Translations under genes and position numbers: made by a program | In this document: positions 7,684-19,361 of the stretch, one piece after another | How the letters are laid out: every line of letters starts with the position of its first letter | Numbering within the stretch: the stretch's first letter is position 1 | Source of the DNA: an uncultured Ruminococcus sp. | GTDB taxonomy: Bacteria; Bacillota; Clostridia; Oscillospirales; CAG-272 | Length of the DNA: 64,000 nucleotides | Direction: 5' to 3' | Assembly: GCA_964644445.1 (NCBI GenBank) | Contig: CAZXVF010000001.1 | Coordinates: 40,493 to 104,492 of the forward strand | Notes under the pieces: generated by a model | What the model was told of the DNA's origin: nothing | Databases searched by the model: none | The model's input: the letters and a program-made list of their open reading frames with translations, nothing else

Positions 7684-8721
7684 TTAGTTTACGTTGTTCC
7701 TAAATCCGCGTCCCATGATTTCACTGGTCTTGGTTATGATCATAAACGCTCCAGGATCTATCTTGTTTACTTCTTTACGAAGTCGGATAGCCTCGGATCT
7801 TTTGCACACGGTCATGACTACGGTTTTCCCTTGATGAGTATATGCGCCTTCTGCGTGATATACCGTTGCGCTGTGAGCAAGCTTCTTTGTTATGAACTCA
7901 TTGATTTCTTCGGGCTTCGTCGTAATTATCGTGAATGATTTACAAAGATTAATGGAATCTATTATATCGTCGATTATGAATATTTTTGCAAACAGTCCGA
8001 GAAGTGAGAAAAGTCCGGTTTGAGTATCAAAGAAGAAAACGCCGTCTTTGCATCCGATGAATGTGGTAAGTGCGATGAGTAAATCTGTGAAGAGCAATGC
8101 CGTTCCGATGTTTAGATCCGTATGCTTCTTGAATATCAAAGCGATTATATCCGTTCCTCCCGAGGAAGCCTTGCACTTAAACAATATTGCAGATCCTATT
8201 CCGGTGAGTAGAACCGCATAAACCAATTCCAACAGCGGTTCGGACGTCATTTTTCCGTCAAAGGGGAATATAAGTATGTTCGATGTAGGGAATACCGCCT
8301 CAAAAAGTATGTTTTCAAGCGATATCATCATAGAGCAATAGCAAGTCAAAATGCCGCACTCGCGTCCGAGAAAAACAAAGCCTATTATCAATAACAATAT
8401 ATTGATCGCGAGCATATACGTGCCTTGTGATATCTTAAACGGAAGTAAATTTGCCAGCACGACGGAAAGACCACTCACGCCTCCCGTTGCAAATCCGTTA
8501 GGCGTTTTGAAAAAATAAATTCCGATTGTGGTAAGAAGTATGCCGAGATTCACGTAAAGAAAGTATTTTACGTTCTTGGGATTGAAAAAGCTTCCGTTGC
8601 CGATGTGGTTAAATCCTACCTCGGGTTCGTCTTGGTTAATAGTTACCTTTTGTTCGGTTTTCTCGTCTTTCATATAAGCCCTCATCGCGGTGTAATATGC
8701 AGATAAATTAACGTAGATCAC
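7684..8721 (-). CDS. YitT family membrane protein with C-terminal DUF2179-like domain
   Basis: 345 aa. It has a polytopic N-terminal part (GFATGGVSGLSVVL) and a soluble C-terminal domain (TIITTKPEEINEFI...VMTVCKRSEAIRLRKEVNKIDPGAFMII). The track start is GTG; in-frame ATGs at codons 13 and 17 are alternatives. Confidence 0.75.
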   Translation of the reverse strand: MIYVNLSAYYTAMRAYMKDEKTEQKVTINQDEPEVGFNHIGNGSFFNPKNVKYFLYVNLGILLTTIGIYFFKTPNGFATGGVSGLSVVLANLLPFKISQGTYMLAINILLLIIGFVFLGRECGILTCYCSMMISLENILFEAVFPTSNILIFPFDGKMTSEPLLELVYAVLLTGIGSAILFKCKASSGGTDIIALIFKKHTDLNIGTALLFTDLLIALTTFIGCKDGVFFFDTQTGLFSLLGLFAKIFIIDDIIDSINLCKSFTIITTKPEEINEFITKKLAHSATVYHAEGAYTHQGKTVVMTVCKRSEAIRLRKEVNKIDPGAFMIITKTSEIMGRGFRNNVN

Positions 8722-8858
8722 TGCACATAATAATTATACACTTATTTTGTCGAAAGTCAATACATTTTGCAAAATAAAGCCTTTGTCAGCTGTAAAATCG
8801 AAATCGCAAAAATGTAAAAATAGTATTTTTCACAGCCAAAATGTCAAGCCCGAAAATA

Positions 8859-8887
8859 TTGACAAATAAAGAAATATATGATATAAT
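8859..8887 (+). promoter_or_regulatory. Consensus sigma-A promoter ahead of the TerB/ATPase/helicase operon
   Basis: TTGACA (8859..8864), 17 nt, TATAAT (8882..8887). A GGAGG RBS sits 8 nt before the GTG start at 8922. Confidence 0.55.
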
Positions 8888-8921
8888 TTATATTTGATAA
8901 AAAAGTTGCGGAGGTGATGGT

Positions 8922-10595
8922 GTGGATAAAAGCAATGATGCTCGTGATGATTTCTGGGATCTTGGTAAAATAGTACCTAAAAAGAAGAGCAGACCTACTG
9001 CTTTTAATACCTCTACCTACGTAACCAATCACGAGATTTCCGGCCGTTCGTCCGATGTGAATAGCGGTGATAAAAACCGCATAACGCTACTCGATACCTT
9101 GAAGCCGTCGGCCGTCTCGTCCGAAGAATCCTACGTTCCCGAGAACAGCAGATTGATAAAGCGCGTAACCGTTAAAAATTTTGCGGACCGATATGATTTT
9201 TACGGTAATTTTCGCAAAGCCGCGGTAGTGTACTACGATTACAAAACCGAAAAATGTGATTTTGCCCCGTTTTATTCGTATATGCCACAGTATTCTCAGC
9301 TGACCTCTGAGCAAAAGCAATACTATTTTTATTTTAGAGATATGGTCAGACACGGCAAATATATAAAGAGCGATTATTCGTATCTTTATCTTTTGGTCTA
9401 TGAGATACTGAATATGCCGGATTATCTTCCGCCGAATGAAGGAGTGATTTTGCTCTGTAAGCTATGGAGAGAATACAGAACGTCGCTTCCGCGCATCGAT
9501 TCGTATTTTTCGGTATGGATACAGGACTATTGCTTGGTGCACCGCCTTGCATGCCCCATGGAATATATATCGGAATTTATATTTGACGTAATTTATGCCT
9601 CGGATTTTAAGGAGTTCTATTTATCCGAAATGAATATTGGTGCGGATTCGGCTACGGATGCCATGATTGCGTATCTTTCGGATTACGATTGGAGAAAATG
9701 CAGGTATAGAACGTCTGAAAACAAGGAAATGTACTATCGACACATGATAGGCGCAATGACGCGTGTGTTTGCTACAATGTTCGGCGCAGACGGAATGTAC
9801 GAAAATCAAGGTTCTCCGTCTAAAATAGAACGAGACGCATTTCCTCACTCGCTTTGTACGCATGCAGTAAAGTGCAAGCTCTCAATCGAATACGTTCAGC
9901 TTTCACGGGAATTGAACGCAAGACGTGACGTTACCATGTGTGTAAGATATTGCGAAAATAAGCTGCGCGCTTTGATCGGAATTAAAAGCCGACTCGCAAT
10001 CAAGGATCTTTCAAACGTGTATAAAAGCGTTATTGACGGCTATTTTGATGATATCTTGAAAAGGGAAGCGACCAAAAAACGTATTGAAAATCTTCCGGAA
10101 TATGAAAAACTTTACGATGCCCCCAGCTTCGAGATATCATTCGTCGGGGCAGATGAGATAGAACGTGCTTCTTGGTCGACCACGGCACGACTTATATCAG
10201 AGGATTCCGAGGAATATATTGGAAGCATTTCCAATACGGAAAACGTCACAAAGAATGAAAACGATACGAAAGCAATCGTTGATTGCGTTGAAAAATCCGC
10301 CCCATTCTTAGACACCGGAGCCGTGACATGTCAAAATAATGTAAACGAAAATGAAGATAATGAAGAAAAAAGCGTTGGCACCCTTTCAAAAGAAGATATT
10401 GATGTGCTGCGCACTGTGCTGAATTTCGGATTAGATGAAAACGATATGTCTTTAATCGATACGGTAACACGATTGAACGAGTATTTTTCCGATATGTTGG
10501 GAGATATAGCGATAGAATCCGACGGGGAAAAATTCAAAATTATAGATGATTACAGAGAGGACGTTGAGGAATGGCTTTTGAAGCAAGGGAAGTAA
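8922..10595 (+). CDS. sngA: TerB_N / TerB_C domain protein (Shango SngA-like)
   Basis: 557 aa. The TerB_N-type block is DFAPFYSYMPQYSQLTSEQKQYYFYFRDMVRHGKYIKSDYSYLYLLVYEILN...SVWIQDYCLVH. An acidic Asn/Glu-rich linker follows, then a C-terminal block LSKEDIDVLRTVL...RLNEYFSDMLGDIAIESDGEKFKIIDDY that resembles TerB_C. Assignment is from recalled family signatures, not a search. Confidence 0.65.
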   Translation: MDKSNDARDDFWDLGKIVPKKKSRPTAFNTSTYVTNHEISGRSSDVNSGDKNRITLLDTLKPSAVSSEESYVPENSRLIKRVTVKNFADRYDFYGNFRKAAVVYYDYKTEKCDFAPFYSYMPQYSQLTSEQKQYYFYFRDMVRHGKYIKSDYSYLYLLVYEILNMPDYLPPNEGVILLCKLWREYRTSLPRIDSYFSVWIQDYCLVHRLACPMEYISEFIFDVIYASDFKEFYLSEMNIGADSATDAMIAYLSDYDWRKCRYRTSENKEMYYRHMIGAMTRVFATMFGADGMYENQGSPSKIERDAFPHSLCTHAVKCKLSIEYVQLSRELNARRDVTMCVRYCENKLRALIGIKSRLAIKDLSNVYKSVIDGYFDDILKREATKKRIENLPEYEKLYDAPSFEISFVGADEIERASWSTTARLISEDSEEYIGSISNTENVTKNENDTKAIVDCVEKSAPFLDTGAVTCQNNVNENEDNEEKSVGTLSKEDIDVLRTVLNFGLDENDMSLIDTVTRLNEYFSDMLGDIAIESDGEKFKIIDDYREDVEEWLLKQGK

Positions 10596-11941
10596 AAGTA
10601 CCGAAAAGAATATTAAATACGCTAATTACGTCGCTTTCTTCGGGCGTGGTTCCGAGAAGCGGAGCGCCTTATATAGCAATTGGCAGGACCGATGAGATAA
10701 ACTCATTGCTGAATAACCTCGATGACGTCGCTGACGGCGGCTCAATGTGCCGTTTTCTTATAGGAAGATACGGAAGCGGAAAAAGCTTTTTGATCCAGTT
10801 GATACGCGGATATGCGCTTGACAGAGGATTTATAACCGCAGATGTAGATCTCTCGCCGGAAAAGAGATTGTCCGGTGGAAGCGGGGCGGCTTTGGCAACC
10901 TATCGTGAGTTGCTGACGAATTTGGCAACGAAAGCAAATCCGGACGGAAGCGCATTACAGGGTATACTTTCCAGATACTACGTTGGTATTAAGAACGACT
11001 TGGTATCCGAGGGGTACGATCCCGACAGCGAGCCGTTCGTGCTTGAATTGAAAAAAAGGATATATTCAACAATGTCAAGCCTCGAGGGAGACGTAGGCGG
11101 ATTTGATTTTGCCAGAGTTCTGTCTGAATACTATATCGCTACCATCAATGACGATGATATCAAGCGAACCGCATGTCTCAGATGGATCAGGGGAGAGTTT
11201 TCGACTAAGACGGAGGCAAAAGCGGCACTGGGATTCAGCGTAAGCTGTGTTATTGACGATTCGAATTGGTACGTTTTTATCAAGCTTATCGCTTCAATGT
11301 CGAGAAATTTAGGATATAAGGGCTTGGTTCTTTTCATTGACGAGTGCGTAAACCTTTATAAAATTCCGAACAGAGTTTCGCGCGAATCGAATTATGAAAA
11401 AATACTTGCAATATTCAATGACACGTTACAGGGGAAAGCCCCGTGGTTAGGCATCGTATTCGGAGGAACACCTAAATTCTTGGAGGACACTCGCAGGGGA
11501 CTTTTCAGTTACGAAGCGTTAAAGTCACGTCTGGAGGATTCAAAATACGGCGCGCTTGGGTATCATAACCTTTCTTCTCCCGTAATAAGGCTTCGCGCTC
11601 TTTCGGCTAACGAATTATTGGCGCTTATAAAACGCTTGACTCGTTTGTATATGGACAAAGAGGGACTTGAAGCATCGCCGCTCACCGACGAAGAAATAGC
11701 GTCGTTTCTTACCAATGCAATCTCCAGGACGGGGGCCGAGGAGATGATAACACCGCGTGAGATTATAAGAGATTACCTTACTATGCTGAATATACTAAGG
11801 GATAATCCCGGTGCTAAGGTAAGTGATTTTTTAACGAGTGCTTGCGATGATACACCTCGCGCAACCGAAGAAAACGTTACCGTGCAAGGTACAGAAATTA
11901 ATGCACTAAAGAAAATAGATTTATTTGATATAGATATATAA
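10571..11941 (+). CDS. sngB: P-loop ATPase, DUF2791/BrxC-BrxD-like (Shango SngB-like)
   Basis: 456 aa. Walker A is LIGRYGSGKSFL and Walker B is LVLFIDECVNL. It overlaps the upstream gene by 25 nt. Confidence 0.65.
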   Translation: MAFEAREVKVPKRILNTLITSLSSGVVPRSGAPYIAIGRTDEINSLLNNLDDVADGGSMCRFLIGRYGSGKSFLIQLIRGYALDRGFITADVDLSPEKRLSGGSGAALATYRELLTNLATKANPDGSALQGILSRYYVGIKNDLVSEGYDPDSEPFVLELKKRIYSTMSSLEGDVGGFDFARVLSEYYIATINDDDIKRTACLRWIRGEFSTKTEAKAALGFSVSCVIDDSNWYVFIKLIASMSRNLGYKGLVLFIDECVNLYKIPNRVSRESNYEKILAIFNDTLQGKAPWLGIVFGGTPKFLEDTRRGLFSYEALKSRLEDSKYGALGYHNLSSPVIRLRALSANELLALIKRLTRLYMDKEGLEASPLTDEEIASFLTNAISRTGAEEMITPREIIRDYLTMLNILRDNPGAKVSDFLTSACDDTPRATEENVTVQGTEINALKKIDLFDIDI

Positions 11942-11974: not shown

Positions 11975-14212
11975 ATGACGGAAGCAGACAGAATTTTTAT
12001 GAAATTTCCGGATTTCATCAAGGAATACGTGTATTCGCACTCTTGGACGGAGCTCCGCGACGTTCAAATAGAAGCTGCAAGAGTAATATTTGAAACGGAT
12101 AATAATCTTTTAATATCATCCTCCACAGCGTCCGGAAAAACCGAGGCAGCATTTTTCCCCATAATATCCGACGTGTACGACGATCCGGCGGCATCAAAAT
12201 CGGTTTCCGTCTTGTATATAGCCCCTCTTAAGTCTCTTATTAACGATCAGTTTTCGAGACTTCAAGAAATATTGGATATGTCGGGTATTAACGTCACGCA
12301 TTGGCACGGAGACGTAGGTCAATCACATAAGGCGGCGCTTTTGAAAAATCCTTCGGGAATACTGCAAATAACTCCGGAGTCTCTCGAATCAATGTTAATG
12401 CGCAGATCAAACGATATACCGCGCATTTTCAGTAGCCTTCGTTACGTTGTGATAGATGAGGTGCATTCTCTTATCGGCACCGATCGCGGCAATCAGGTGA
12501 TATGTCTGCTTTCCAGAATATCCGACTTGATCGGACATCATCCGCGAAGGATTGGATTAAGCGCAACCGTGGGAGATATTGAACTTACCGCCGCTTGGCT
12601 CGGTGAGGGAACCGAACGAAGGACTGATGCTCCCGTTCCGCCGCGCCTGCCGTTGAAGTGGCGTTTGGCAATGGAGCATTTCTATATACAGAATGCAGAT
12701 GAAATTCAAACTCCGGAAGGTTCATCCGACGGTTCTGCCTACCGAGGCGGGAAAGCGATCTTGGATCCCGGATATGAATTTCTCTATGATGCGGTATATA
12801 ACAGAAAAGCTCTCGTATTTTCCAATTCTAGAGAGGAGACCGAATACGTGACTGCAACTATGCGTCAGATTGCGGCACATAGAGGCGAGGACGACGTTTT
12901 TCTTATCCATCACGGAAATCTTTCCGCTTCGCTTAGAGAAGACGCCGAGATACGAATGAAGGATGAAGAAATATCGCGTGCCGTCACCTGCGCCACAGTC
13001 ACCCTTGAACTAGGTATAGATATAGGTAAATTAGATCGCGTTGCTCAAGTAGGCGCACCGACGACTGTTTCGGGATTTCTTCAAAGACTCGGACGTTCCG
13101 GCAGGCGAGGCAATCCTCCGGAAATGGTTATGGTTTACAGAGAAGATACTCTCTTGCCGAACGCCCCGTTGCCTCAGCTTATTCCTTGGGAATTGCTTCG
13201 CGGTATTGCAATAATAGATTTATATTCCGAGGAGAGGTTTATAGAGCCACCGCGGATCAAAAAAATGCCTTTAAGCTTAGCGTTCCACCAAACACTCAGC
13301 GTATTAGCCTCACGAGGTGAGCAGACACCGAAGCAGCTTGCATCGATTATTCTGTCGCTTCCTCCTCTTAAATGCCTCGGCAAGGAGGCGTATCGCGCTC
13401 TTTTAGTTTCAATGATCAATCAAGAGTATATCGAAATGACAGAGTGCGGCGGTCTTATCGTAGGATTAGCAGGGGAGAGAATAATTAATTCATATAAGTT
13501 TTATGCTGTCTTTAAAGATAGTGAGGATTATACCGTTCGATCCGGAAGCGAGGAGATAGGCACGATAACGACGCCGCCTCCGAACGGAGACAGATTTGCC
13601 CTCGCAGGCAGAGTTTGGGAGGTGCTTGAAACCGATATAGGCAGAAAGCTAATATTCGTAAAGCCCGTCGAAGGAAAAATGGAAATATCATGGCCGGGCG
13701 ATAGCGGAGAGATACATACTAAGCTTCTTCTAAAAATGCGCGAGATACTGTTCAATGACAAGGAATACAAATTCTTGGGCTCAAACGCGAATCTGCGTTT
13801 GCAAAAAGCCAGACGTCTCGCCAAAAATGCAAAAATGGACGATAAGCTTTTAGTTTTTATCGGCGGACAGAGCTTTTGTCTTTTCCCGTGGCTCGGAACC
13901 AGATCGTTCAGAACGGCTAAACGCTTCTTGAAAAAGTATGCATCTGAGCTTGGAATTTCGGATATACAGAGCGAATCGTGCTGCTATATCACCTTTAAGG
14001 CAAAAGATAGCTCCGAAGGCGATATAATGTCACATATATCAAGCATTATTGAACGTGACGGAATTGATACGTTTGATTTGGTTTCCGAAGGAGAACTACC
14101 GGTGTTTGACAAATATGATGAATACGTTCCGGCAGAGCTTTTGCGCGATGCCTTTGCAACCGATAGACTCTTCGCCGATGAGGTTGTTGAAAGATTTGGA
14201 GGTGGCGTATGA
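11975..14212 (+). CDS. sngC: Superfamily-2 DEAD/DEAH (DEVH) helicase, Lhr-core-like (Shango SngC-like)
   Basis: 745 aa. Motif I is SSTASGKTEA, motif II VVIDEVHSL, motif III GLSATVG and motif VI FLQRLGRSGRRG. An extension of about 350 aa follows the helicase core, as in Lhr-type helicases. A GGAGG RBS lies 7 nt upstream. Confidence 0.8.
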   Translation: MTEADRIFMKFPDFIKEYVYSHSWTELRDVQIEAARVIFETDNNLLISSSTASGKTEAAFFPIISDVYDDPAASKSVSVLYIAPLKSLINDQFSRLQEILDMSGINVTHWHGDVGQSHKAALLKNPSGILQITPESLESMLMRRSNDIPRIFSSLRYVVIDEVHSLIGTDRGNQVICLLSRISDLIGHHPRRIGLSATVGDIELTAAWLGEGTERRTDAPVPPRLPLKWRLAMEHFYIQNADEIQTPEGSSDGSAYRGGKAILDPGYEFLYDAVYNRKALVFSNSREETEYVTATMRQIAAHRGEDDVFLIHHGNLSASLREDAEIRMKDEEISRAVTCATVTLELGIDIGKLDRVAQVGAPTTVSGFLQRLGRSGRRGNPPEMVMVYREDTLLPNAPLPQLIPWELLRGIAIIDLYSEERFIEPPRIKKMPLSLAFHQTLSVLASRGEQTPKQLASIILSLPPLKCLGKEAYRALLVSMINQEYIEMTECGGLIVGLAGERIINSYKFYAVFKDSEDYTVRSGSEEIGTITTPPPNGDRFALAGRVWEVLETDIGRKLIFVKPVEGKMEISWPGDSGEIHTKLLLKMREILFNDKEYKFLGSNANLRLQKARRLAKNAKMDDKLLVFIGGQSFCLFPWLGTRSFRTAKRFLKKYASELGISDIQSESCCYITFKAKDSSEGDIMSHISSIIERDGIDTFDLVSEGELPVFDKYDEYVPAELLRDAFATDRLFADEVVERFGGGV

Positions 14213-14961
14213 TATACGATCTCTTAGCACCGGTGTACGATGCTATTAACAGCGATATTGACTACAAGACATGGGCGGATTTCATAGAAAAAGCAGTAAA
14301 AAAATACGGTCCGAACGATCCGTCGCTGTGGCTCGATCTCGGATGCGGAACCGGTAAAATGACGCTGGAGTTGGCAAAACGAGGCAGAGATATGATAGGG
14401 ATAGATTATTCTGCAGAAATGCTTGATATAGCGAGATCTGAAGCGGAGCGCGAGGGGCTTGACGGAATACTATGGCTCTGTCAGGATATGCGTGAATTTG
14501 AATTATACGGTACGGTTGACGTCGTTACGTCATGCCTAGATTCGATAAATCACATAACCGAGACCGGAGATCTTGACAAATGTTTTTCATTGGTACACAA
14601 TTATCTGTCTCCGAACGGGCTTTTCATTTTCGATATCAACGGAAAAGCAAAATTTGAAACCGTATATGCAGACCATGCATATGTTATGGAGGAAAAAGAA
14701 AGCGTATGTATATGGCAAAATTCATATAATCCAAAAAGCCGTGCATGTGACTTTTTCATAACTCTCTTTAAGGAAAATCAAAACGGAACGTACGAGCGAT
14801 ACGATGAATGCCAAAGGGAACGTATGTACACTATAAGAACTATGAGATCACGTCTTGAAAAGAATTCAATGGAATTTATAGGTGCGTTCTCCGATTTTAA
14901 TTTTACGGTGGCAGACGATTCCGCAGAGCGCATATATATCGTGGCAAAATGCAAAAAGTGA
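14209..14961 (+). CDS. Class I SAM-dependent methyltransferase (small-molecule-type Rossmann MTase)
   Basis: 250 aa. SAM-binding motif I is WLDLGCGTGKMTLELAKRG, followed by an acidic-residue motif IGIDYS. The start ATG overlaps the helicase stop as ATGA. The GGAGG RBS lies within the helicase 3' end. Confidence 0.8.
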   Translation: MIYDLLAPVYDAINSDIDYKTWADFIEKAVKKYGPNDPSLWLDLGCGTGKMTLELAKRGRDMIGIDYSAEMLDIARSEAEREGLDGILWLCQDMREFELYGTVDVVTSCLDSINHITETGDLDKCFSLVHNYLSPNGLFIFDINGKAKFETVYADHAYVMEEKESVCIWQNSYNPKSRACDFFITLFKENQNGTYERYDECQRERMYTIRTMRSRLEKNSMEFIGAFSDFNFTVADDSAERIYIVAKCKK

Positions 14962-14970
14962 GGAAATATA

Positions 14971-15870
14971 ATGAGCGTAAATAATAAAAAAACGAACTCA
15001 ACAATTTTAAGGGGAATGACAAGAGACGGCTCTGCCCGCATTTTAGTTATCAATTCCACTAAAATAGTCGACGATATGGTTAAATATCATAAAACCACGC
15101 CTACAGCGACCGCGGCTCTCGGAAGAACGGTAACAGCGGCTTCAATGGTCGGAACCATGCTTCCGGAAAAAGGCAACACGGTGACCTTTAATATTTCGGG
15201 TGACGGAGATGCCGGTAGTATTATCGCTGTCGGAGATTATTTCGGAAACGTGAAGGGATATATACAAAATCCAATGGTAAATCCGCCGAAGAAGTCAAAC
15301 GGAAAGCTTGACGTCGGTGCTGCGGTGGGAGCGGGAACTATTTCCGTCATAAAGGACGTCGGACAGGCAGATCCGCAAATCGGAACGAGTAATTTGGTGA
15401 GCGGAGAAATCGCCGAAGATATTGCTGCTTATTTTGCGTTAAGCGAGCAGATACCTACAGTACTTTCATTGGGAGTTCTGGTTGACAAGGATTATTCATG
15501 TCTTGCCGCAGGAGGTGTTCTGATTCAGCTTATGCCGTATCCGGATGAAGAAACGGTAAATCTCATAGAAAGAAATGCAGCTGATCTTGTAAATATTTCG
15601 AGATATTTCGAACAAGGAAAAACCAACGAGGAAATTGCAATGATCGCCATGCGCGATATTCCTTTTGACGTCTTTGATACGCTTGACGTATCGTATAAAT
15701 GCGACTGCTCAAGGAGCCGAATGGAGAAAAAAATTAAAAGTCTCGGTAAAAATGAAATAGTATCAATGTTAAACGAGCAGGAAGCGGAAGGAAAACTGCG
15801 CGAGCTGACTGCGGTTTGCAGATTTTGCAGTACGGAGTATACGTTTACCGAGTCTCAATTATTGAACTGA
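14971..15870 (+). CDS. hslO: Redox-regulated chaperone Hsp33
   Basis: 299 aa. The C-terminal zinc centre is CDCSRSRMEKK...CRFCSTEY (CxC...CxxC). Confidence 0.9.
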   Translation: MSVNNKKTNSTILRGMTRDGSARILVINSTKIVDDMVKYHKTTPTATAALGRTVTAASMVGTMLPEKGNTVTFNISGDGDAGSIIAVGDYFGNVKGYIQNPMVNPPKKSNGKLDVGAAVGAGTISVIKDVGQADPQIGTSNLVSGEIAEDIAAYFALSEQIPTVLSLGVLVDKDYSCLAAGGVLIQLMPYPDEETVNLIERNAADLVNISRYFEQGKTNEEIAMIAMRDIPFDVFDTLDVSYKCDCSRSRMEKKIKSLGKNEIVSMLNEQEAEGKLRELTAVCRFCSTEYTFTESQLLN

Positions 15871-16005
15871 TACAATATAGCTACTGTACTGTTTTAAGCT
15901 TTGGGCTTGAAGCTTTTCCGACTTGACGTCGCCGATAAATGAGCATTGGATATTTTCTTCCTTTATCATATACTTTAAGTAAACGTGATTCAGGAGGAAA
16001 ATATT

Positions 16006-16533
16006 ATGGATCCCATGAGAACCTTTTTGACGGAGGAAAATATAGCGCTGCACCGAGAATATATGCGAAGCCTGCGTCTCAAACATTCGGTAATGGAAAA
16101 AAGTATTTCCGTGATTAAGAACGCTTCATTGTCGGAAATATCAAAGGCAGCTATTAAAAAACGTGATAAAGATGACGTTCTGGCTAATTTGTCGGAATAT
16201 CTTATGCACGATTTGTATTTTAAGTCTTTTTCGGAAATGCCTTCGGGCAACAGGCTTATAAAAAAGTATTATTCATCAGACGAGGCGTTTTTGTATGAGA
16301 TATTTTGTAAGTGCCGTGAAACGCCGGCGGGATTTGTACTGATATACTTGGACGACAGAGGACGTCCGCAAGTGAAGGAATTCAATTCATGGCGAGATTT
16401 GATCCATCCGACGCGTCTTGCAATAGACGTGTCAGAGCATTCATATTTTTTGGATTACGGCTTTGAACGCGAAAAATATCTTAAAAACGCATTATCACAC
16501 TTGGATTTAGCAAAGCTGAAAAGCGGATCATAA
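16006..16533 (+). CDS. Fe/Mn superoxide dismutase-like protein (short, divergent)
   Basis: The C-terminal AIDVSEHSYFLDYGFEREKYL aligns with the SOD signature DVWEHAYYLDYxNxRxxY. His residues in ALHREY and LMHDLYF sit where metal ligands His26 and His73 (E. coli FeSOD numbering) would fall. I prefer the ATG at 16006, which follows GGAGG plus 8 nt, over the track GTG at 15985. Confidence 0.5.
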   Translation: MDPMRTFLTEENIALHREYMRSLRLKHSVMEKSISVIKNASLSEISKAAIKKRDKDDVLANLSEYLMHDLYFKSFSEMPSGNRLIKKYYSSDEAFLYEIFCKCRETPAGFVLIYLDDRGRPQVKEFNSWRDLIHPTRLAIDVSEHSYFLDYGFEREKYLKNALSHLDLAKLKSGS

Positions 16534-16554: not shown

Positions 16555-17781
16555 ATGAGTTTATTGAAGGGGAATGCGATCGTTGGACAGTCCGGCGGTC
16601 CTACGGCGGCAATAAATGCAACTTTGTCAGGAGTCATCAGAGGAGCAAATGAAAATTCTGAAATAATTGAAAAAATATACGGAATGAGAAACGGAATAGA
16701 AGGATTTCTTGATGAGCGAATCGTAGATCTTTCGGCAATTTTTTCGGATGATTCCAAACTCCGTGCATTGGAGCTTACTCCGGCCGCCGCACTCGGATCC
16801 TGTAGAAAAAAGCTGGGTGATCATGATACCGATAAGAAAACGTACGAGCGGCTGCTTGAATTATTTAAAAAATACGATATAAGATATTTCTTTTACATAG
16901 GCGGAAACGATTCGATGGACACGGTACTCAAGCTTTCACGTTTTATGCAGGAGAGGGCATATGAGATGCGTATTATCGGAGTGCCGAAAACCGTTGATAA
17001 CGATCTTTCCGTAACCGATCACACGCCTGGATTCGGTTCGGCGGCAAAATTCGTTGCAACTACCGTCAAAGAAATAATTCGCGACGTTTCGGTATATACG
17101 AAGAAGGCGGTAACGATAGTCGAAATTATGGGAAGAGACGCAGGTTGGCTTACAGCCTCATCTGCACTTCCGATACTTTCCGGCGGAATCGGTCCAGATC
17201 TTATTTATCTACCCGAGGTTGACTTCGATAATGAAAAATTTATTTCCGACGTTCTCTCTTGCCTTGAGAGGCATCCCGCGGTTCTCGTAACGGTTTCCGA
17301 GGGAATCAGATTTGCCGACGGGGAATACGTCGGTGCATCAGGAAACGCCGTAGATGCATTTGGACATAAAGCTCTTTCCGGCGCAGGTAAGGTGCTTGAA
17401 GAATTGGTTAGAAACAGATTGGGATGCAAGGTCAGATCTATTGAATTGAATCTTCCTCAGCGTTGTGCCGCGCATATCTCTTCGTTGACGGATATAAGAG
17501 AATCCGTGGAAACCGGACGAGCAGCAGTAAACGCGGCAATTTCAGGAAAAACCGCTCAAATGATGATAGTCAAGAGGAACGATACGGCAGAATATTCGGT
17601 ATCTTATGATACATCGGATATTGGCGGAATAGCGAATGCAGTAAAAACCGTTCCCCGTGAATATATAAACGACACGGAAAACGGAGTTACCGATGAATGC
17701 TTGCGGTATCTTGCTCCGCTTATCATAGGTGAAGTTGCTCCGGAATATGAAGCGGGAATGCCCATACACATAGTGATATAA
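16555..17781 (+). CDS. pfp: 6-phosphofructokinase, long PfkA family, probably PPi-dependent
   Basis: 408 aa. It has GQSGGPTAAINA, IGGNDSMDT, GVPKTVDNDL (Lys in the PKT position, typical of PPi-PFK rather than the PGT of ATP-PFK) and MGRDAGWL. Confidence 0.75.
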   Translation: MSLLKGNAIVGQSGGPTAAINATLSGVIRGANENSEIIEKIYGMRNGIEGFLDERIVDLSAIFSDDSKLRALELTPAAALGSCRKKLGDHDTDKKTYERLLELFKKYDIRYFFYIGGNDSMDTVLKLSRFMQERAYEMRIIGVPKTVDNDLSVTDHTPGFGSAAKFVATTVKEIIRDVSVYTKKAVTIVEIMGRDAGWLTASSALPILSGGIGPDLIYLPEVDFDNEKFISDVLSCLERHPAVLVTVSEGIRFADGEYVGASGNAVDAFGHKALSGAGKVLEELVRNRLGCKVRSIELNLPQRCAAHISSLTDIRESVETGRAAVNAAISGKTAQMMIVKRNDTAEYSVSYDTSDIGGIANAVKTVPREYINDTENGVTDECLRYLAPLIIGEVAPEYEAGMPIHIVI

Positions 17782-17980: not shown

Positions 17981-18009
17981 TTGATTTTTGATGTGAGTTA
18001 TGATATAAT
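17981..18009 (+). promoter_or_regulatory. Sigma-A promoter for the SAM riboswitch and metK
   Basis: TTGATT (17981..17986), 17 nt, TATAAT (18004..18009). Confidence 0.55.
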
Positions 18010-18029
18010 GCAGTTGCAATTAAATATTA

Positions 18030-18150
18030 CTTATCAAGAGCGGCGGAGGGACTGGCCCTGTGAAGCCCGGCAACCTGTTTTATTATAAGGTGCTAATTCC
18101 TGAGAGATGAGGTTTCGATCGGGGGTTTGCGCTTGCAGCCCTTTTTTCTT
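18030..18150 (+). promoter_or_regulatory. SAM-I (S-box) riboswitch leader
   Basis: The conserved core is CTTATCAAGAGCGGCGGAGGGACTGGCCCTGTGAAGCCCGGCAACC...AAGGTGCTAATTCCTGAGAG. A GC-rich segment ending in CCCTTTTTTCTT (expression platform) follows. It sits directly upstream of metK. Confidence 0.85.
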
Positions 18151-18179: not shown

Positions 18180-19361
18180 ATGAAGAAAATTCTGTTTACG
18201 TCGGAATCCGTTACGGAAGGACATCCTGACAAAATATGCGATAAAATATCCGATGCGATTTTGGATGAAATGATTGCTCAGGATCCGGAGAGCCGAGTTG
18301 CCTGTGAAACCTTTGCGACTACCGGTATTATAACGGTAATGGGCGAAATTACCACGAAAGCAAAGGTGGATATTCAAAAGATCGTCAGAGAGACGGTTTC
18401 GGAAATAGGATACGATAGAGCAAAGTACGGATTTGATGCACATACGTGTGCCGTGCTCAGCTCGATTCACGAGCAAAGTGCCGATATAGCACTTGGCGTT
18501 GATAAATGCCTTGAAGCTAAGGATGATGAAAAATACGATGAACTTAATACCGGCGCGGGAGATCAGGGACTCATGTTCGGATATGCTTGCGATGAAACGC
18601 CAGAGCTTATGCCTCTTCCGATTTCTCTTGCTCATAAGCTTGCATTAAAGCTTACCGAGGTTCGTAAAAACGGCAAGCTTTCCTACCTACGTCCGGACGG
18701 AAAAACTCAGGTAACCGTCGAATATGTTGATGGAAAGCCTAAAAGAGTCGATACTATAGTGGTTTCTTCACAGCATTCTGCGGAGGTGAATCTCGCAACC
18801 ATACGCCGTGATATAATCGATAAGGTTATTTTGCCTGTAATTCCGACTGAACTTATGGATGGCAAGGTTAATATTTACGTTAATCCTACCGGTAGATTCG
18901 TTATCGGCGGACCGCAAGGCGACACGGGACTCACCGGCAGAAAGATAATAGTCGATACCTACGGCGGTTATTCTCGCCACGGTGGCGGTGCATTTTCAGG
19001 CAAAGATCCCACGAAGGTTGACAGAAGCGCATCCTATGCCGCAAGATACGTTGCCAAAAATATTGTAAAGGCCGGGCTCGCAAGCAAATGTGAGGTTCAG
19101 CTTGCTTATGCAATCGGAGTTGCACGTCCCGTTTCCGTAATGATCGATACCTTCGGAACTGCAACGGTTGCCGAGGAGAAGATATCCGAAGCGGTAAATA
19201 AATTAGTGGATCTTCGTCCCGCCGCAATTATCAAGAAATTCGATCTTCGTAAGCCAATATATAAGCAGCTTGCAGCCTACGGCCATATGGGTAGAGAAGA
19301 CCTCGGTGTAAAATGGGAACTATGCGATATCGCAGATAAGCTTCGCGAAATGTGCATTTAA
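18180..19361 (+). CDS. metK: S-adenosylmethionine synthetase
   Basis: 393 aa. Canonical blocks are present: [28 protein letters not shown] and [17 protein letters not shown]. Confidence 0.95.

What the first reader, a model, noticed from the sequence alone, without database searches (positions are those of the whole stretch)
14209..15870. SAM methyltransferase translationally coupled (ATGA overlap) to the Shango-like helicase, followed by hslO: possible fourth component or operon capture
Seen in sequence: the 250-aa class I SAM methyltransferase starts at an ATG that overlaps the helicase stop (ATGA at 14209..14212). Its GGAGG RBS lies inside the helicase coding end. I found no promoter or terminator between them. 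hslO follows after 9 nt, and only a weak hairpin follows hslO. Inference: if the three-gene system were a simple horizontally inserted cassette, a 4-bp overlap with a resident gene would be unexpected. Two explanations fit. Either the methyltransferase travels with the system as a four-gene variant not part of the described three-gene Shango, or the defence operon is fused transcriptionally to a stress operon of MTase plus the redox chaperone Hsp33. Either would be unusual for this system type.
Basis: inference. Interest (0 to 1): 0.6.

Follow-up and report, generated by a model that had tools for sequence, protein, structure and literature searches.

The report
Shango cassette lodged inside housekeeping operon
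The methyltransferase overlapping the Shango helicase is a resident housekeeping gene, not a fourth defence component: long ago the three-gene Shango phage-defence cassette, with its own strong promoter and no terminator, landed in front of a methyltransferase–Hsp33 gene pair, and dozens of related gut bacteria have inherited it there.

Summary
sngC (11975-14212) and a 250-aa class I SAM methyltransferase (MT, 14209-14961) share an ATGA overlap. A GGAGG lies inside the end of sngC, hslO follows after 9 nt, and no promoter or terminator sits between them.

The MT is not a Shango component.
- 20 of 80 related species carry MT-hslO with no Shango. Where the local gene order is kept, MT then starts 2-15 nt after ispE.
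- None of 87 Shango-like loci in other taxa (7 plasmid, 80 metagenomic) has this MT or hslO. 20 sampled downstream genes included no methyltransferase.
- The MT lacks DNA-methyltransferase motifs. Its best structural matches are uncharacterised MTases.

The juxtaposition is not a chance event either.
- 41 of the 80 species have sngABC directly upstream of MT, with a junction of -11 to +29 nt.
- A near-perfect TTGACA-17-TATAAT promoter precedes sngA in 39 of 40 loci.
- The Shango protein tree tracks the flanking genes (Mantel r 0.87-0.89). SngB and SngC are as conserved as Hsp33.

Best reading: an old insertion of a terminator-less cassette into an ispE|MT-hslO operon, inherited vertically and lost several times. 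Co-transcription is inferred, not shown. Interest is moderate to low.

The parts
8859..8887 (+). Consensus sigma-70-type promoter of the cassette (TTGACA, 17 nt with TG, TATAAT; 12 of 12 matches). It is the likely driver of sngABC-MT-hslO.
   Evidence: The same promoter scores at least 11 of 12 upstream of sngA in 39 of 40 related loci.
8922..10595 (+). sngA, a TerB_N-domain protein with a GTG start. It is the fast-evolving member of the trio.
   Evidence: Pfam TerB_N 7e-12. PADLOC SngA 9e-37. Mean pairwise distance 0.527.
10571..11941 (+). sngB, a BrxD-like ATPase. It overlaps sngA by 25 nt.
   Evidence: Pfam BrxC_BrxD 1.5e-143. PADLOC SngB 6e-156.
11975..14212 (+). sngC, a DEAD/DEAH (Lhr/BrxHI-like) helicase.
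   Evidence: PADLOC SngC 1.9e-231 and BrxHI 6e-120. Pfam DEAD and Helicase_C.
14198..14202 (+). GGAGG ribosome-binding site of the MT, inside the 3' end of sngC and 6 nt before the ATG.
   Evidence: Read directly from the sequence. A GGAGG/GGAG-type site is present in most related junctions.
14209..14212 (+). ATGA, where the MT start codon overlaps the sngC stop codon (translational coupling site).
   Evidence: The same 4-nt overlap occurs in 19 of 41 species loci, and 27 of 41 have some overlap.
14209..14961 (+). Class I SAM-dependent methyltransferase of unknown substrate. It is a resident housekeeping gene, not a Shango component.
   Evidence: Pfam Methyltransf_25/11/31. No NCBIfam family reaches its cut-off. 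Full-length PDB matches are 1y8c and 3d2l at about 1e-31. No (D/N/S)PP(Y/F) motif. Found without Shango in 20 species.
14971..15870 (+). hslO (Hsp33 redox-regulated chaperone), 9 nt after the MT. The CDC and CRFC cysteine motifs are present.
   Evidence: Pfam HSP33 8e-80. NCBIfam HslO equivalog 250.9 bits against a 244 cut-off. The cysteines were read.
15891..15917 (+). Weak hairpin (10 bp, 3 G-C pairs) followed by UUUU. At best a leaky terminator after hslO.
   Evidence: region z-score -0.22. Not picked up by the terminator scan.
15985..16533 (+). Small protein with only the Sod_Fe_C domain. It belongs to the conserved downstream block.
   Evidence: Pfam Sod_Fe_C 4.5e-7. Syntenic in most relatives. 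Mean pairwise distance 0.629.
16555..17781 (+). Phosphofructokinase, part of the conserved downstream block.
   Evidence: Pfam PFK 6e-52. Synteny.
18028..18113 (+). SAM-I riboswitch ahead of metK (18180-19361). It marks a separate transcription unit and the right-hand limit of any read-through.
   Evidence: Rfam RF00162, 71.4 bits, 1e-14. Promoter-like site at 17981-18009.

Best explanation
The 250-aa methyltransferase is a resident housekeeping gene. It forms a long-conserved pair with hslO (Hsp33).

In the wider clade of uncultured gut and rumen Clostridia, this pair was the distal part of an ispE-MT-hslO operon, with the MT starting 2-15 nt after ispE.

In an ancestor of the clade, a complete three-gene Shango cassette (sngA TerB_N protein, sngB BrxD-like ATPase, sngC Lhr/BrxHI-like helicase) came to lie exactly in the ispE|MT intercistronic gap. 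The cassette carries its own near-perfect sigma-70 promoter and has no terminator.

Since then the MT and hslO have most likely been transcribed from the Shango promoter. The MT is probably translated by ribosomes that terminate at the sngC stop and restart at the overlapping ATG, helped by the GGAGG inside sngC.

The arrangement was inherited vertically and lost in several lineages. In the window's own lineage it survived a rearrangement that removed ispE from the neighbourhood.

The MT plays no role in Shango defence. It keeps a tight junction with whichever gene lies upstream.

Shown: the gene identities, the junction geometry, the presence/absence pattern, the conserved promoter and the tree congruence. 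Inferred: the direction of the event (insertion, then losses), co-transcription and translational coupling.
For: - **Gene identities.** PADLOC gives SngA 9e-37, SngB 6e-156 and SngC 2e-231. The MT is a generic class I MTase and hslO a true Hsp33.
- **The MT exists without Shango.** Of 80 species-level loci fetched with the MT as bait, 41 have sngABC directly upstream, 20 have MT-hslO with no sngC within at least 900 nt upstream, and 13 have the MT alone.
- **An empty site exists.** In 10 Shango-less loci that keep the rpsF-ssb/ispE block, the distance from the ispE stop to the MT start is 2-15 nt. In Shango-bearing loci the order is ispE, then 126-380 nt containing TTGACA-17-TATAAT, then sngABC, then MT (ispE identified).
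- **The promoter is conserved.** It scores at least 11 of 12 in 39 of 40 loci and 12 of 12 plus TG in the window.
- **No internal promoter signal.** The best promoter score in the last 500 nt of sngC averages 8.49, against 8.23 in background coding windows. No terminator sits at the junction.
- **Inheritance looks vertical.** SngB+SngC distances correlate with Hsp33+PFK (Mantel r = 0.885, 0 of 999 permutations), with ispE (r = 0.867, intercept near 0) and with MetK (r = 0.63). 20 of 35 clades are shared between the two trees. G+C content equals that of the flanks.
- **Losses are nested within Shango-bearing clades.** Fitch parsimony puts Shango at the root, with 7 changes. Two sister pairs of opposite state have 100% bootstrap support.
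- **The converse sampling agrees.** 4 of 4 close SngC homologues chosen without reference to the MT show ispE...sngABC-MT-Hsp33.
- **Outside the clade there is no link.** 0 of 87 Shango-like loci carry the MT or hslO. Their downstream genes are heterogeneous, and none of 20 sampled is a methyltransferase.
- **Published Shango has three genes**.
- **The window lineage lacks ispE.** ispE, S6, SSB and the HD gene are absent from the whole 64-kb window, yet the sngC-MT junction is intact.
Against: - No transcript data exist, so read-through from the sngA promoter and the lack of an internal start site are inferred from sequence patterns only.
- The direction of the event rests on parsimony over a neighbour-joining tree built from three linked genes, not on a genome-wide species tree. 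Several deep nodes have low bootstrap support (28-60%).
- Repeated deletions that each restored a 2-15-nt ispE-MT junction are not easy to explain mechanistically.
- The MT evolves somewhat more slowly, relative to Hsp33+PFK, in Shango-bearing pairs (ratio 1.14) than in Shango-less pairs (1.37). This could hint at extra constraint when it is coupled to sngC, but the pairs are not independent and there are no fixed differences.
- The MT gives a domain-level PADLOC hit to mad2 (1.8e-22).
Confidence: 0.78

Rival explanations
1. Four-gene variant. In this clade the MT has been recruited as a working accessory of Shango, for example to modify a nucleic acid or small molecule for self-marking or regulation. 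On this view the conserved translational coupling reflects a need for matched amounts of the proteins.
For: - The tight junction (-11 to +29 nt) is conserved in 41 species, and 27 of them overlap.
- The MT is relatively more constrained in Shango-bearing lineages (ratio 1.14 against 1.37).
- There is a domain-level PADLOC hit to the MADS methyltransferase mad2 (1.8e-22).
- Relatives of SngB and SngC (BrxD, BrxHI) work in methyltransferase-containing type 2 BREX.
Against: - The MT and hslO stay intact in 20 Shango-less species, with 52 of the 56 residues invariant in Shango-bearing taxa also invariant and identical in Shango-less taxa, and no fixed differences.
- In those species the MT is just as tightly joined to ispE (2-15 nt), so tight coupling is a property of the MT locus, not of Shango.
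- 0 of 87 other Shango loci have the MT.
- The MT has no DNA-methyltransferase motif. Its best full-length relatives are uncharacterised SAM-dependent MTases, 1y8c and 3d2l.
- The mad2 hit covers only the generic SAM-binding fold, profile positions 278-446 of 492.
Confidence: 0.08
2. Neutral neighbours. The adjacency has no consequence for expression. The MT and hslO have their own start site inside sngC, or are expressed well enough some other way, and the overlap is merely what compaction leaves behind.
For: - 4-nt overlaps are common in compact genomes (general knowledge).
- Weak promoter-like sites exist inside sngC (13186-13215 and 13626-13655, 9 of 12 matches).
- The pattern scans used here are crude.
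Against: - Promoter-like sites are not enriched at the 3' end of sngC across 41 loci.
- In the Shango-less state the MT has no promoter of its own either. The best score in the ispE-MT junction region is 6-10 of 12, and the gap is 2-15 nt. It is therefore an internal operon gene that needs upstream transcription.
- In the window lineage ispE is gone, which leaves the sngA promoter as the only strong candidate.
Confidence: 0.1
3. Co-opted trio. In this clade the Shango-like trio is no longer, or not only, an antiphage system. It has become a core cellular DNA-processing module, which is why it sits in a housekeeping operon and is so well conserved.
For: - SngB (0.274) and SngC (0.254) diverge as slowly as Hsp33 (0.269) and more slowly than PFK (0.331) or the MT (0.349).
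- The trio is kept at one site in 41 of the 61 loci that have MT-hslO and a decidable upstream region.
- It has a conserved promoter with near-perfect consensus.
- It does not lie in a defence island.
- Shango-like trios in other gut Firmicutes sit next to repair genes: addB with a 4-nt overlap, a uvrA-like gene, AP endonuclease 2, and a DinG-like helicase.
Against: - SngA diverges quickly (0.527), as expected for a component in an arms race.
- The trio has been lost at least 3 to 7 times without loss of its neighbours, so it is dispensable.
- All three proteins score as full-length Shango components.
- No functional data exist either way.
Confidence: 0.15

Closest known systems
Shango (SngA/SngB/SngC) antiphage system (Millman et al. 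2022, bioRxiv 10.1101/2022.05.11.491447; Johnson et al. 2022, bioRxiv 10.1101/2022.11.11.516204)
   Same: It has the same three genes in the same order: a TerB_N protein, a BrxD-like ATPase and a DEAD/DEAH helicase. All three match the PADLOC Sng profiles over essentially their full length.
   Different: Published Shango is a three-gene unit found in variable defence hotspots and on mobile elements, and the plasmid examples sit among CBASS-like, restriction-modification and toxin-antitoxin genes. Here the cassette sits at one fixed site inside a housekeeping operon, tracks its flanking genes across at least 41 species, and is joined without a terminator to a methyltransferase and hslO.
Core defence hotspots (cDHS1/2) of Pseudomonas aeruginosa (bioRxiv 10.1101/2022.11.11.516204)
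   Same: A defence system sits at a conserved chromosomal position bracketed by core genes, and Shango is one of the occupants there.
   Different: The contents of a cDHS vary from strain to strain and are assembled by mobile elements. Here the same system occupies the site across species, there is no sign of other cargo beyond an occasional EamA or beta-lactamase gene, and the site lies within an operon rather than between operons.
BrxD-BrxHI dyad of type 2 BREX (PMC12839542)
   Same: SngB hits BrxD (3e-46) and SngC hits BrxHI (6e-120). The ATPase-helicase dyad is tightly linked in both systems.
   Different: BREX depends on a large PglX DNA methyltransferase, PglZ and BrxC, and none of these is present here. 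The adjacent MT is a 250-aa MTase of unknown substrate with no DNA-methyltransferase motif.
Uncharacterised class I SAM methyltransferases PDB 1y8c and 3d2l
   Same: They match the MT over its full length (residues 1-247) at about 1e-31 and are of the same size.
   Different: Their function is unknown, so they give no lead on substrate. No NCBIfam family reaches its cut-off.

Membership tests
Shango (SngABC) | SngA: a TerB_N-domain protein | tested here: met
   Pfam TerB_N 7e-12. PADLOC SngA 9e-37 over profile positions 81-527 of 528.
Shango (SngABC) | SngB: a BrxD-like ATPase (PF10923) | tested here: met
   Pfam BrxC_BrxD 1.5e-143. PADLOC SngB 6e-156.
Shango (SngABC) | SngC: a DEAD/DEAH-box helicase | tested here: met
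   PADLOC SngC 1.9e-231 over profile positions 5-713 of 720.
Shango (SngABC) | The three genes are adjacent and co-directional | tested here: met
   8922-10595, 10571-11941 and 11975-14212, all on the + strand.
Shango (SngABC) | Confers protection against phage | not testable with these tools
   Shown only for E. coli and P. aeruginosa homologues in the literature.
Hypothetical four-gene Shango variant that includes the MT | The MT family co-occurs with SngC in independent lineages | tested here: not met
   0 of 7 plasmid loci and 0 of 80 metagenomic SngC loci have the MT or hslO (tblastn at 1e-5). 72 of the 87 have at least 900 nt downstream. 20 sampled neighbours include no methyltransferase.
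Hypothetical four-gene Shango variant that includes the MT | The MT is lost or decays when sngABC is absent | tested here: not met
   20 Shango-less species keep an intact MT-hslO pair. There are no fixed differences between the MTs of Shango-bearing and Shango-less species.
DNA methyltransferase of a restriction-modification, BREX or MADS-type defence | A catalytic (D/N/S)PP(Y/F) or PCQ motif and a target-recognition domain, or a full-length match to PglX or mad2 | tested here: not met
   No such motif in the 250-aa sequence. The mad2 hit covers only profile positions 278-446 of 492. The best full-length relatives are the uncharacterised SAM-dependent methyltransferases 1y8c and 3d2l.
Hsp33 / HslO | A full-length Hsp33 domain above the curated cut-off, plus the C-terminal zinc-binding cysteines (CXC...CXXC) | tested here: met
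   NCBIfam NF001033 scores 250.9 bits against a 244 cut-off. CDC and CRFC were read from the sequence at about 15705 and 15822.
Operon-internal gene (ispE-MT-hslO) | A short intercistronic distance to the upstream gene and no promoter of its own, in relatives without the cassette | tested here: met
   The ispE stop to MT start distance is 2-15 nt in 10 loci, and the best promoter score there is 6-10 of 12.

The most novel reading that the evidence does not exclude
Operon entrapment of a defence system. The Shango cassette replaced the transcriptional input of the downstream MT-hslO genes with its own consensus promoter, so it became hard to lose: only a deletion that restores read-through from upstream is tolerated. 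This would explain why one defence system stays fixed at one site across dozens of species, with SngB and SngC as conserved as Hsp33. It may also have been partly co-opted for a core DNA-processing role.
Probability: 0.2. Interest if true: 0.55.

Novelty: new member of a known kind. Interest (0 to 1): 0.33.

Why it matters
- **For annotation.** A 4-nt overlap and a shared transcript do not make a gene part of a defence system. Here presence/absence among relatives separates the two cleanly.
- **For the evolution of defence systems.** This is a documented case of a normally mobile, sporadic system (Shango) that is fixed inside a housekeeping operon, tracks its flanking genes, has a strikingly conserved consensus promoter, and has been lost cleanly several times. 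It could serve to test whether embedding in an operon stabilises a defence system.
- **What it does not do.** It does not reveal a new mechanism or a new component.

Tried and rejected
- **PADLOC mad2 hit of the MT (1.8e-22).** Rejected as generic similarity of the SAM-binding fold. It covers only part of the profile, and no other MADS genes are nearby.
- **DNA-methyltransferase reading.** Rejected: no catalytic motif was found, and no NCBIfam family reaches its cut-off.
- **Recent horizontal insertion.** Rejected: G+C content equals that of the flanks, and the Shango tree agrees with the flanking genes.
- **Internal promoter at the 3' end of sngC.** No enrichment over background.
- **A conserved fourth gene in other Shango loci.** Clustering the first downstream ORF of 87 loci gave only small, lineage-specific clusters.
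- **Names for the window's organism.** The cluster look-up returned no names. Only the MAG labels Eubacteriales, Clostridia, "uncultured Ruminococcus" and Oscillospiraceae are available.
- **MT rates in Shango-bearing versus Shango-less lineages.** There is a modest difference (1.14 against 1.37), but the pairs are not independent, so this is left as inconclusive.
- **Searches for distant homologues.** The protein searches for the MT and for SngC listed only close relatives, at least 65% and at least 74% identical. Distant Shango loci therefore had to come from plasmids and from the metagenome scan.

Full report
**1. The observation**

- sngC runs 11975-14212 and the methyltransferase (MT) 14209-14961. 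Together they form ATGA at 14209-14212.
- GGAGG lies at 14198-14202, inside sngC and 6 nt before the ATG.
- The MT stop is at 14959-14961, and hslO starts 9 nt later at 14971.

The upstream trio is a complete Shango system.
- By PADLOC: SngA 9e-37, SngB 6e-156, SngC 1.9e-231.
- By Pfam: TerB_N, BrxC_BrxD, and DEAD/Helicase_C.

The MT is a generic class I SAM methyltransferase. hslO is a bona fide Hsp33: Pfam 8e-80 and NCBIfam 250.9 bits against a cut-off of 244.

No credible promoter or terminator lies at the sngC/MT or MT/hslO junctions. After hslO there is only a weak 10-bp hairpin plus UUUU at 15891-15917. A perfect sigma-70-type promoter (TTGACA, 17 nt with TG, TATAAT) lies at 8859-8887, 34 nt before the sngA start.

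**2. Is the MT part of Shango? Sampling from the MT side**

The MT family is large, with 4,826 hits, and the listed ones are all about 250 aa. Contigs carrying MTs 70-80% identical to the window's all showed sngA-sngB-sngC-MT-Hsp33-Sod_Fe_C-PFK. Their genes upstream of sngA differed.

A scan of one genome per species gave 80 loci from uncultured gut and rumen Clostridia, with MT identity of 47-70%. tblastn with the window's proteins sorted them as follows:

| Class of locus | Loci |
|---|---|
| sngABC directly upstream of the MT | 41 |
| MT-Hsp33 with no sngC within at least 900 nt upstream | 20 |
| MT alone, no Shango | 13 |
| Undecidable (contig ends or too little upstream sequence) | 6 |

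In all 41 Shango-bearing loci the sngC-MT junction is -11 to +29 nt. 27 overlap, and 19 have the 4-nt overlap.

**3. Sampling from the Shango side**
- Four close SngC homologues (74-78% identical), picked without reference to the MT, all sit in ispE...sngABC-MT-Hsp33-Sod_Fe_C-PFK.
- Outside the clade the link disappears. Seven plasmid-borne Shango loci are followed by unrelated genes, often defence or mobile ones. They come from Clostridium, Paenibacillus (two), Roseobacter, Burkholderia, Cetobacterium and Natrinema.
- 80 metagenomic loci with SngC 47-65% identical have neither the MT nor hslO. 72 of the 87 loci have at least 900 nt downstream.
- Their first downstream ORFs form only small clusters. 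Pfam scans of 20 of them found no methyltransferase.
- The literature describes Shango as a three-gene system of unknown mechanism, found in variable hotspots.

**4. What the MT is**
- No NCBIfam family reaches its cut-off.
- The only full-length matches to solved structures are two uncharacterised SAM methyltransferases, 1y8c and 3d2l, at about 1e-31.
- The sequence has no (D/N/S)PP(Y/F) motif.
- The PADLOC mad2 hit covers only the SAM-binding fold.
- It is therefore a housekeeping-type methyltransferase of unknown substrate. The pairing with hslO extends to outgroups that never show Shango.

**5. The empty site**

Clustering of upstream ORFs shows a conserved block: an HD-domain gene, rpsR-ssb-rpsF on the minus strand, and a GHMP kinase on the plus strand. 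NCBIfam identifies the kinase as ispE.
- In 10 Shango-less loci that keep this block, the MT starts 2-15 nt after the ispE stop. No good promoter lies there (best score 6-10 of 12).
- In Shango-bearing loci the order is ispE, then 126-380 nt holding a perfect or near-perfect TTGACA-17-TATAAT, then sngABC, then the MT. The spacer is longer where an EamA or beta-lactamase gene intervenes.
- The promoter scores at least 11 of 12 in 39 of 40 loci. That is unusually strong conservation for intergenic DNA among species whose proteins differ by about 30%.

So the cassette, made up of promoter, sngA, sngB and sngC with no terminator, occupies exactly the ispE|MT intercistronic position of an older operon.

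**6. Age and mode of inheritance**
- G+C content of the cassette (0.43-0.47) matches its flanks.
- SngB+SngC distances correlate with distances for three sets of flanking genes:

| Compared with | Mantel r | Note |
|---|---|---|
| Hsp33+PFK | 0.885 | 0 of 999 permutations as high; 20 of 35 clades shared |
| ispE (other flank) | 0.867 | regression intercept near 0 |
| MetK | 0.63 | |

- Mean pairwise distances over 31 taxa are:

| Protein | Mean pairwise distance |
|---|---|
| SngC | 0.254 |
| Hsp33 | 0.269 |
| SngB | 0.274 |
| PFK | 0.331 |
| MT | 0.349 |
| SngA | 0.527 |
| Sod_Fe_C-like protein | 0.629 |

- On a bootstrapped neighbour-joining tree of MT+Hsp33+PFK, the Shango-less species are nested in several places within Shango-bearing clades.
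- Fitch parsimony puts Shango at the root, with 7 changes. Two sister relationships of opposite state have 100% support.
- The most economical account is one old acquisition, vertical descent, and at least 3 to 7 losses.

Two caveats apply. The tree uses linked genes rather than a species tree. How repeated deletions each restored a tight ispE-MT junction is not explained.

**7. The window's own lineage**

ispE, S6, SSB and the HD-domain gene are absent from the whole 64-kb window. Upstream of sngA there is instead a divergently transcribed YitT-family gene, a TetR-family gene and an aspartate aminotransferase. Close relatives have ThrRS or a UPF0122 gene there. The breakpoint therefore lies upstream of the sngA promoter, and the cassette stayed with MT-hslO.

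With ispE gone, and no enrichment of promoter-like sites at the 3' end of sngC (8.49 against 8.23 in background windows), the sngA promoter is the only good candidate to transcribe the MT and hslO. A SAM-I riboswitch at 18028-18113 and a promoter-like site at 17981-18009 mark metK as a separate unit.

**8. Mechanism proposed**

These steps are inferred, not shown.
- Transcription starts just after 8887 and runs through sngA, sngB, sngC, the MT and hslO to a leaky hairpin at about 15891-15917.
- The MT is translated by termination-reinitiation at ATGA, helped by GGAGG.
- hslO is translated from a GAGG that overlaps the MT stop.

The MT's tight junction is a property of its locus. It is coupled just as closely to ispE where Shango is absent.

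**9. Verdict**

The "fourth component" reading is rejected. The "operon fusion or capture" reading is supported, with one correction: the cassette lies inside an older operon and is ancient, not a recent insertion.

The system is an ordinary Shango by composition. What is unusual is its genomic behaviour: a fixed site, inheritance that tracks its flanks, slowly evolving SngB and SngC, and a conserved consensus promoter.

That leaves room for a modestly novel reading, in which the cassette is stabilised by being embedded in the operon or has been partly co-opted for a core function. I put that at about 0.2. Overall interest is moderate to low.

Noticed in passing
window 18028-18113 (+): A SAM-I riboswitch (Rfam RF00162, 71.4 bits) lies ahead of metK (18180-19361), with a promoter-like site at 17981-18009. 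It was the only Rfam family found in the 64-kb window at the gathering threshold.
   Followed up: partly
window 15985-16533 (+); syntenic in L003-L058: A 182-aa protein with only the C-terminal domain of Fe/Mn superoxide dismutase (Sod_Fe_C, 4.5e-7) is conserved between hslO and pfk in most relatives. It evolves very fast (mean pairwise distance 0.63), and no NCBIfam family matches it. Its function is unclear.
   Followed up: no
upstream of sngA in 40 loci (e.g. window 8859-8887; L008 about 4777; L063): Beyond the two hexamers, the promoter spacer carries a recurring pattern (TTGACAA..[AT]ACG......TG.TATAAT). This could be an operator, or simply an extended -10 element plus preferred spacer bases.
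   Followed up: partly
L105 4730-10272 and L106 4320-9853: In two metagenomic contigs a more distant Shango trio (SngC 61% identical) overlaps by 4 nt with an addB-like gene (ADDB_N + PDDEXK_1). This is a second case of Shango coupled translationally to a housekeeping or repair gene.
   Followed up: partly
L090 (C. estertheticum plasmid) 8247-10793; L131 9236-12079; L107, L120; L114: Several Shango-like loci in Firmicutes are followed by DNA-repair-type genes: a UvrA-like ABC ATPase (twice), an AP_endonuc_2 TIM barrel (twice) and a DinG-like helicase. This may reflect a link to DNA processing, or it may be coincidence.
   Followed up: no
L012, L024, L028, L048, L179, L181 (between ispE and sngA): Some species have an extra EamA-family transporter gene, sometimes with a beta-lactamase-family gene, between ispE and the sngA promoter. 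The left edge of the cassette is therefore a small insertion or rearrangement hotspot.
   Followed up: partly
L009 10764-11650: In this relative hslO is split into ORFs of 193 and 112 aa. This is either a frameshift (possible pseudogene) or an assembly error, while the sngC-MT junction is intact.
   Followed up: no
L109-L117, L120, L122-L124 (metagenome loci): Helicases 57-60% identical to SngC occur here with no detectable SngB or SngA upstream. They may be stand-alone SngC/BrxHI-like helicases or belong to another system.
   Followed up: no
window 7684-8887: The YitT/DUF2179 membrane-protein gene on the minus strand has its own strong promoter-like site (8760-8733, 11 of 12), placed back to back with the sngA promoter. 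The 200-bp region is therefore a divergent promoter region created by the lineage-specific rearrangement.
   Followed up: no
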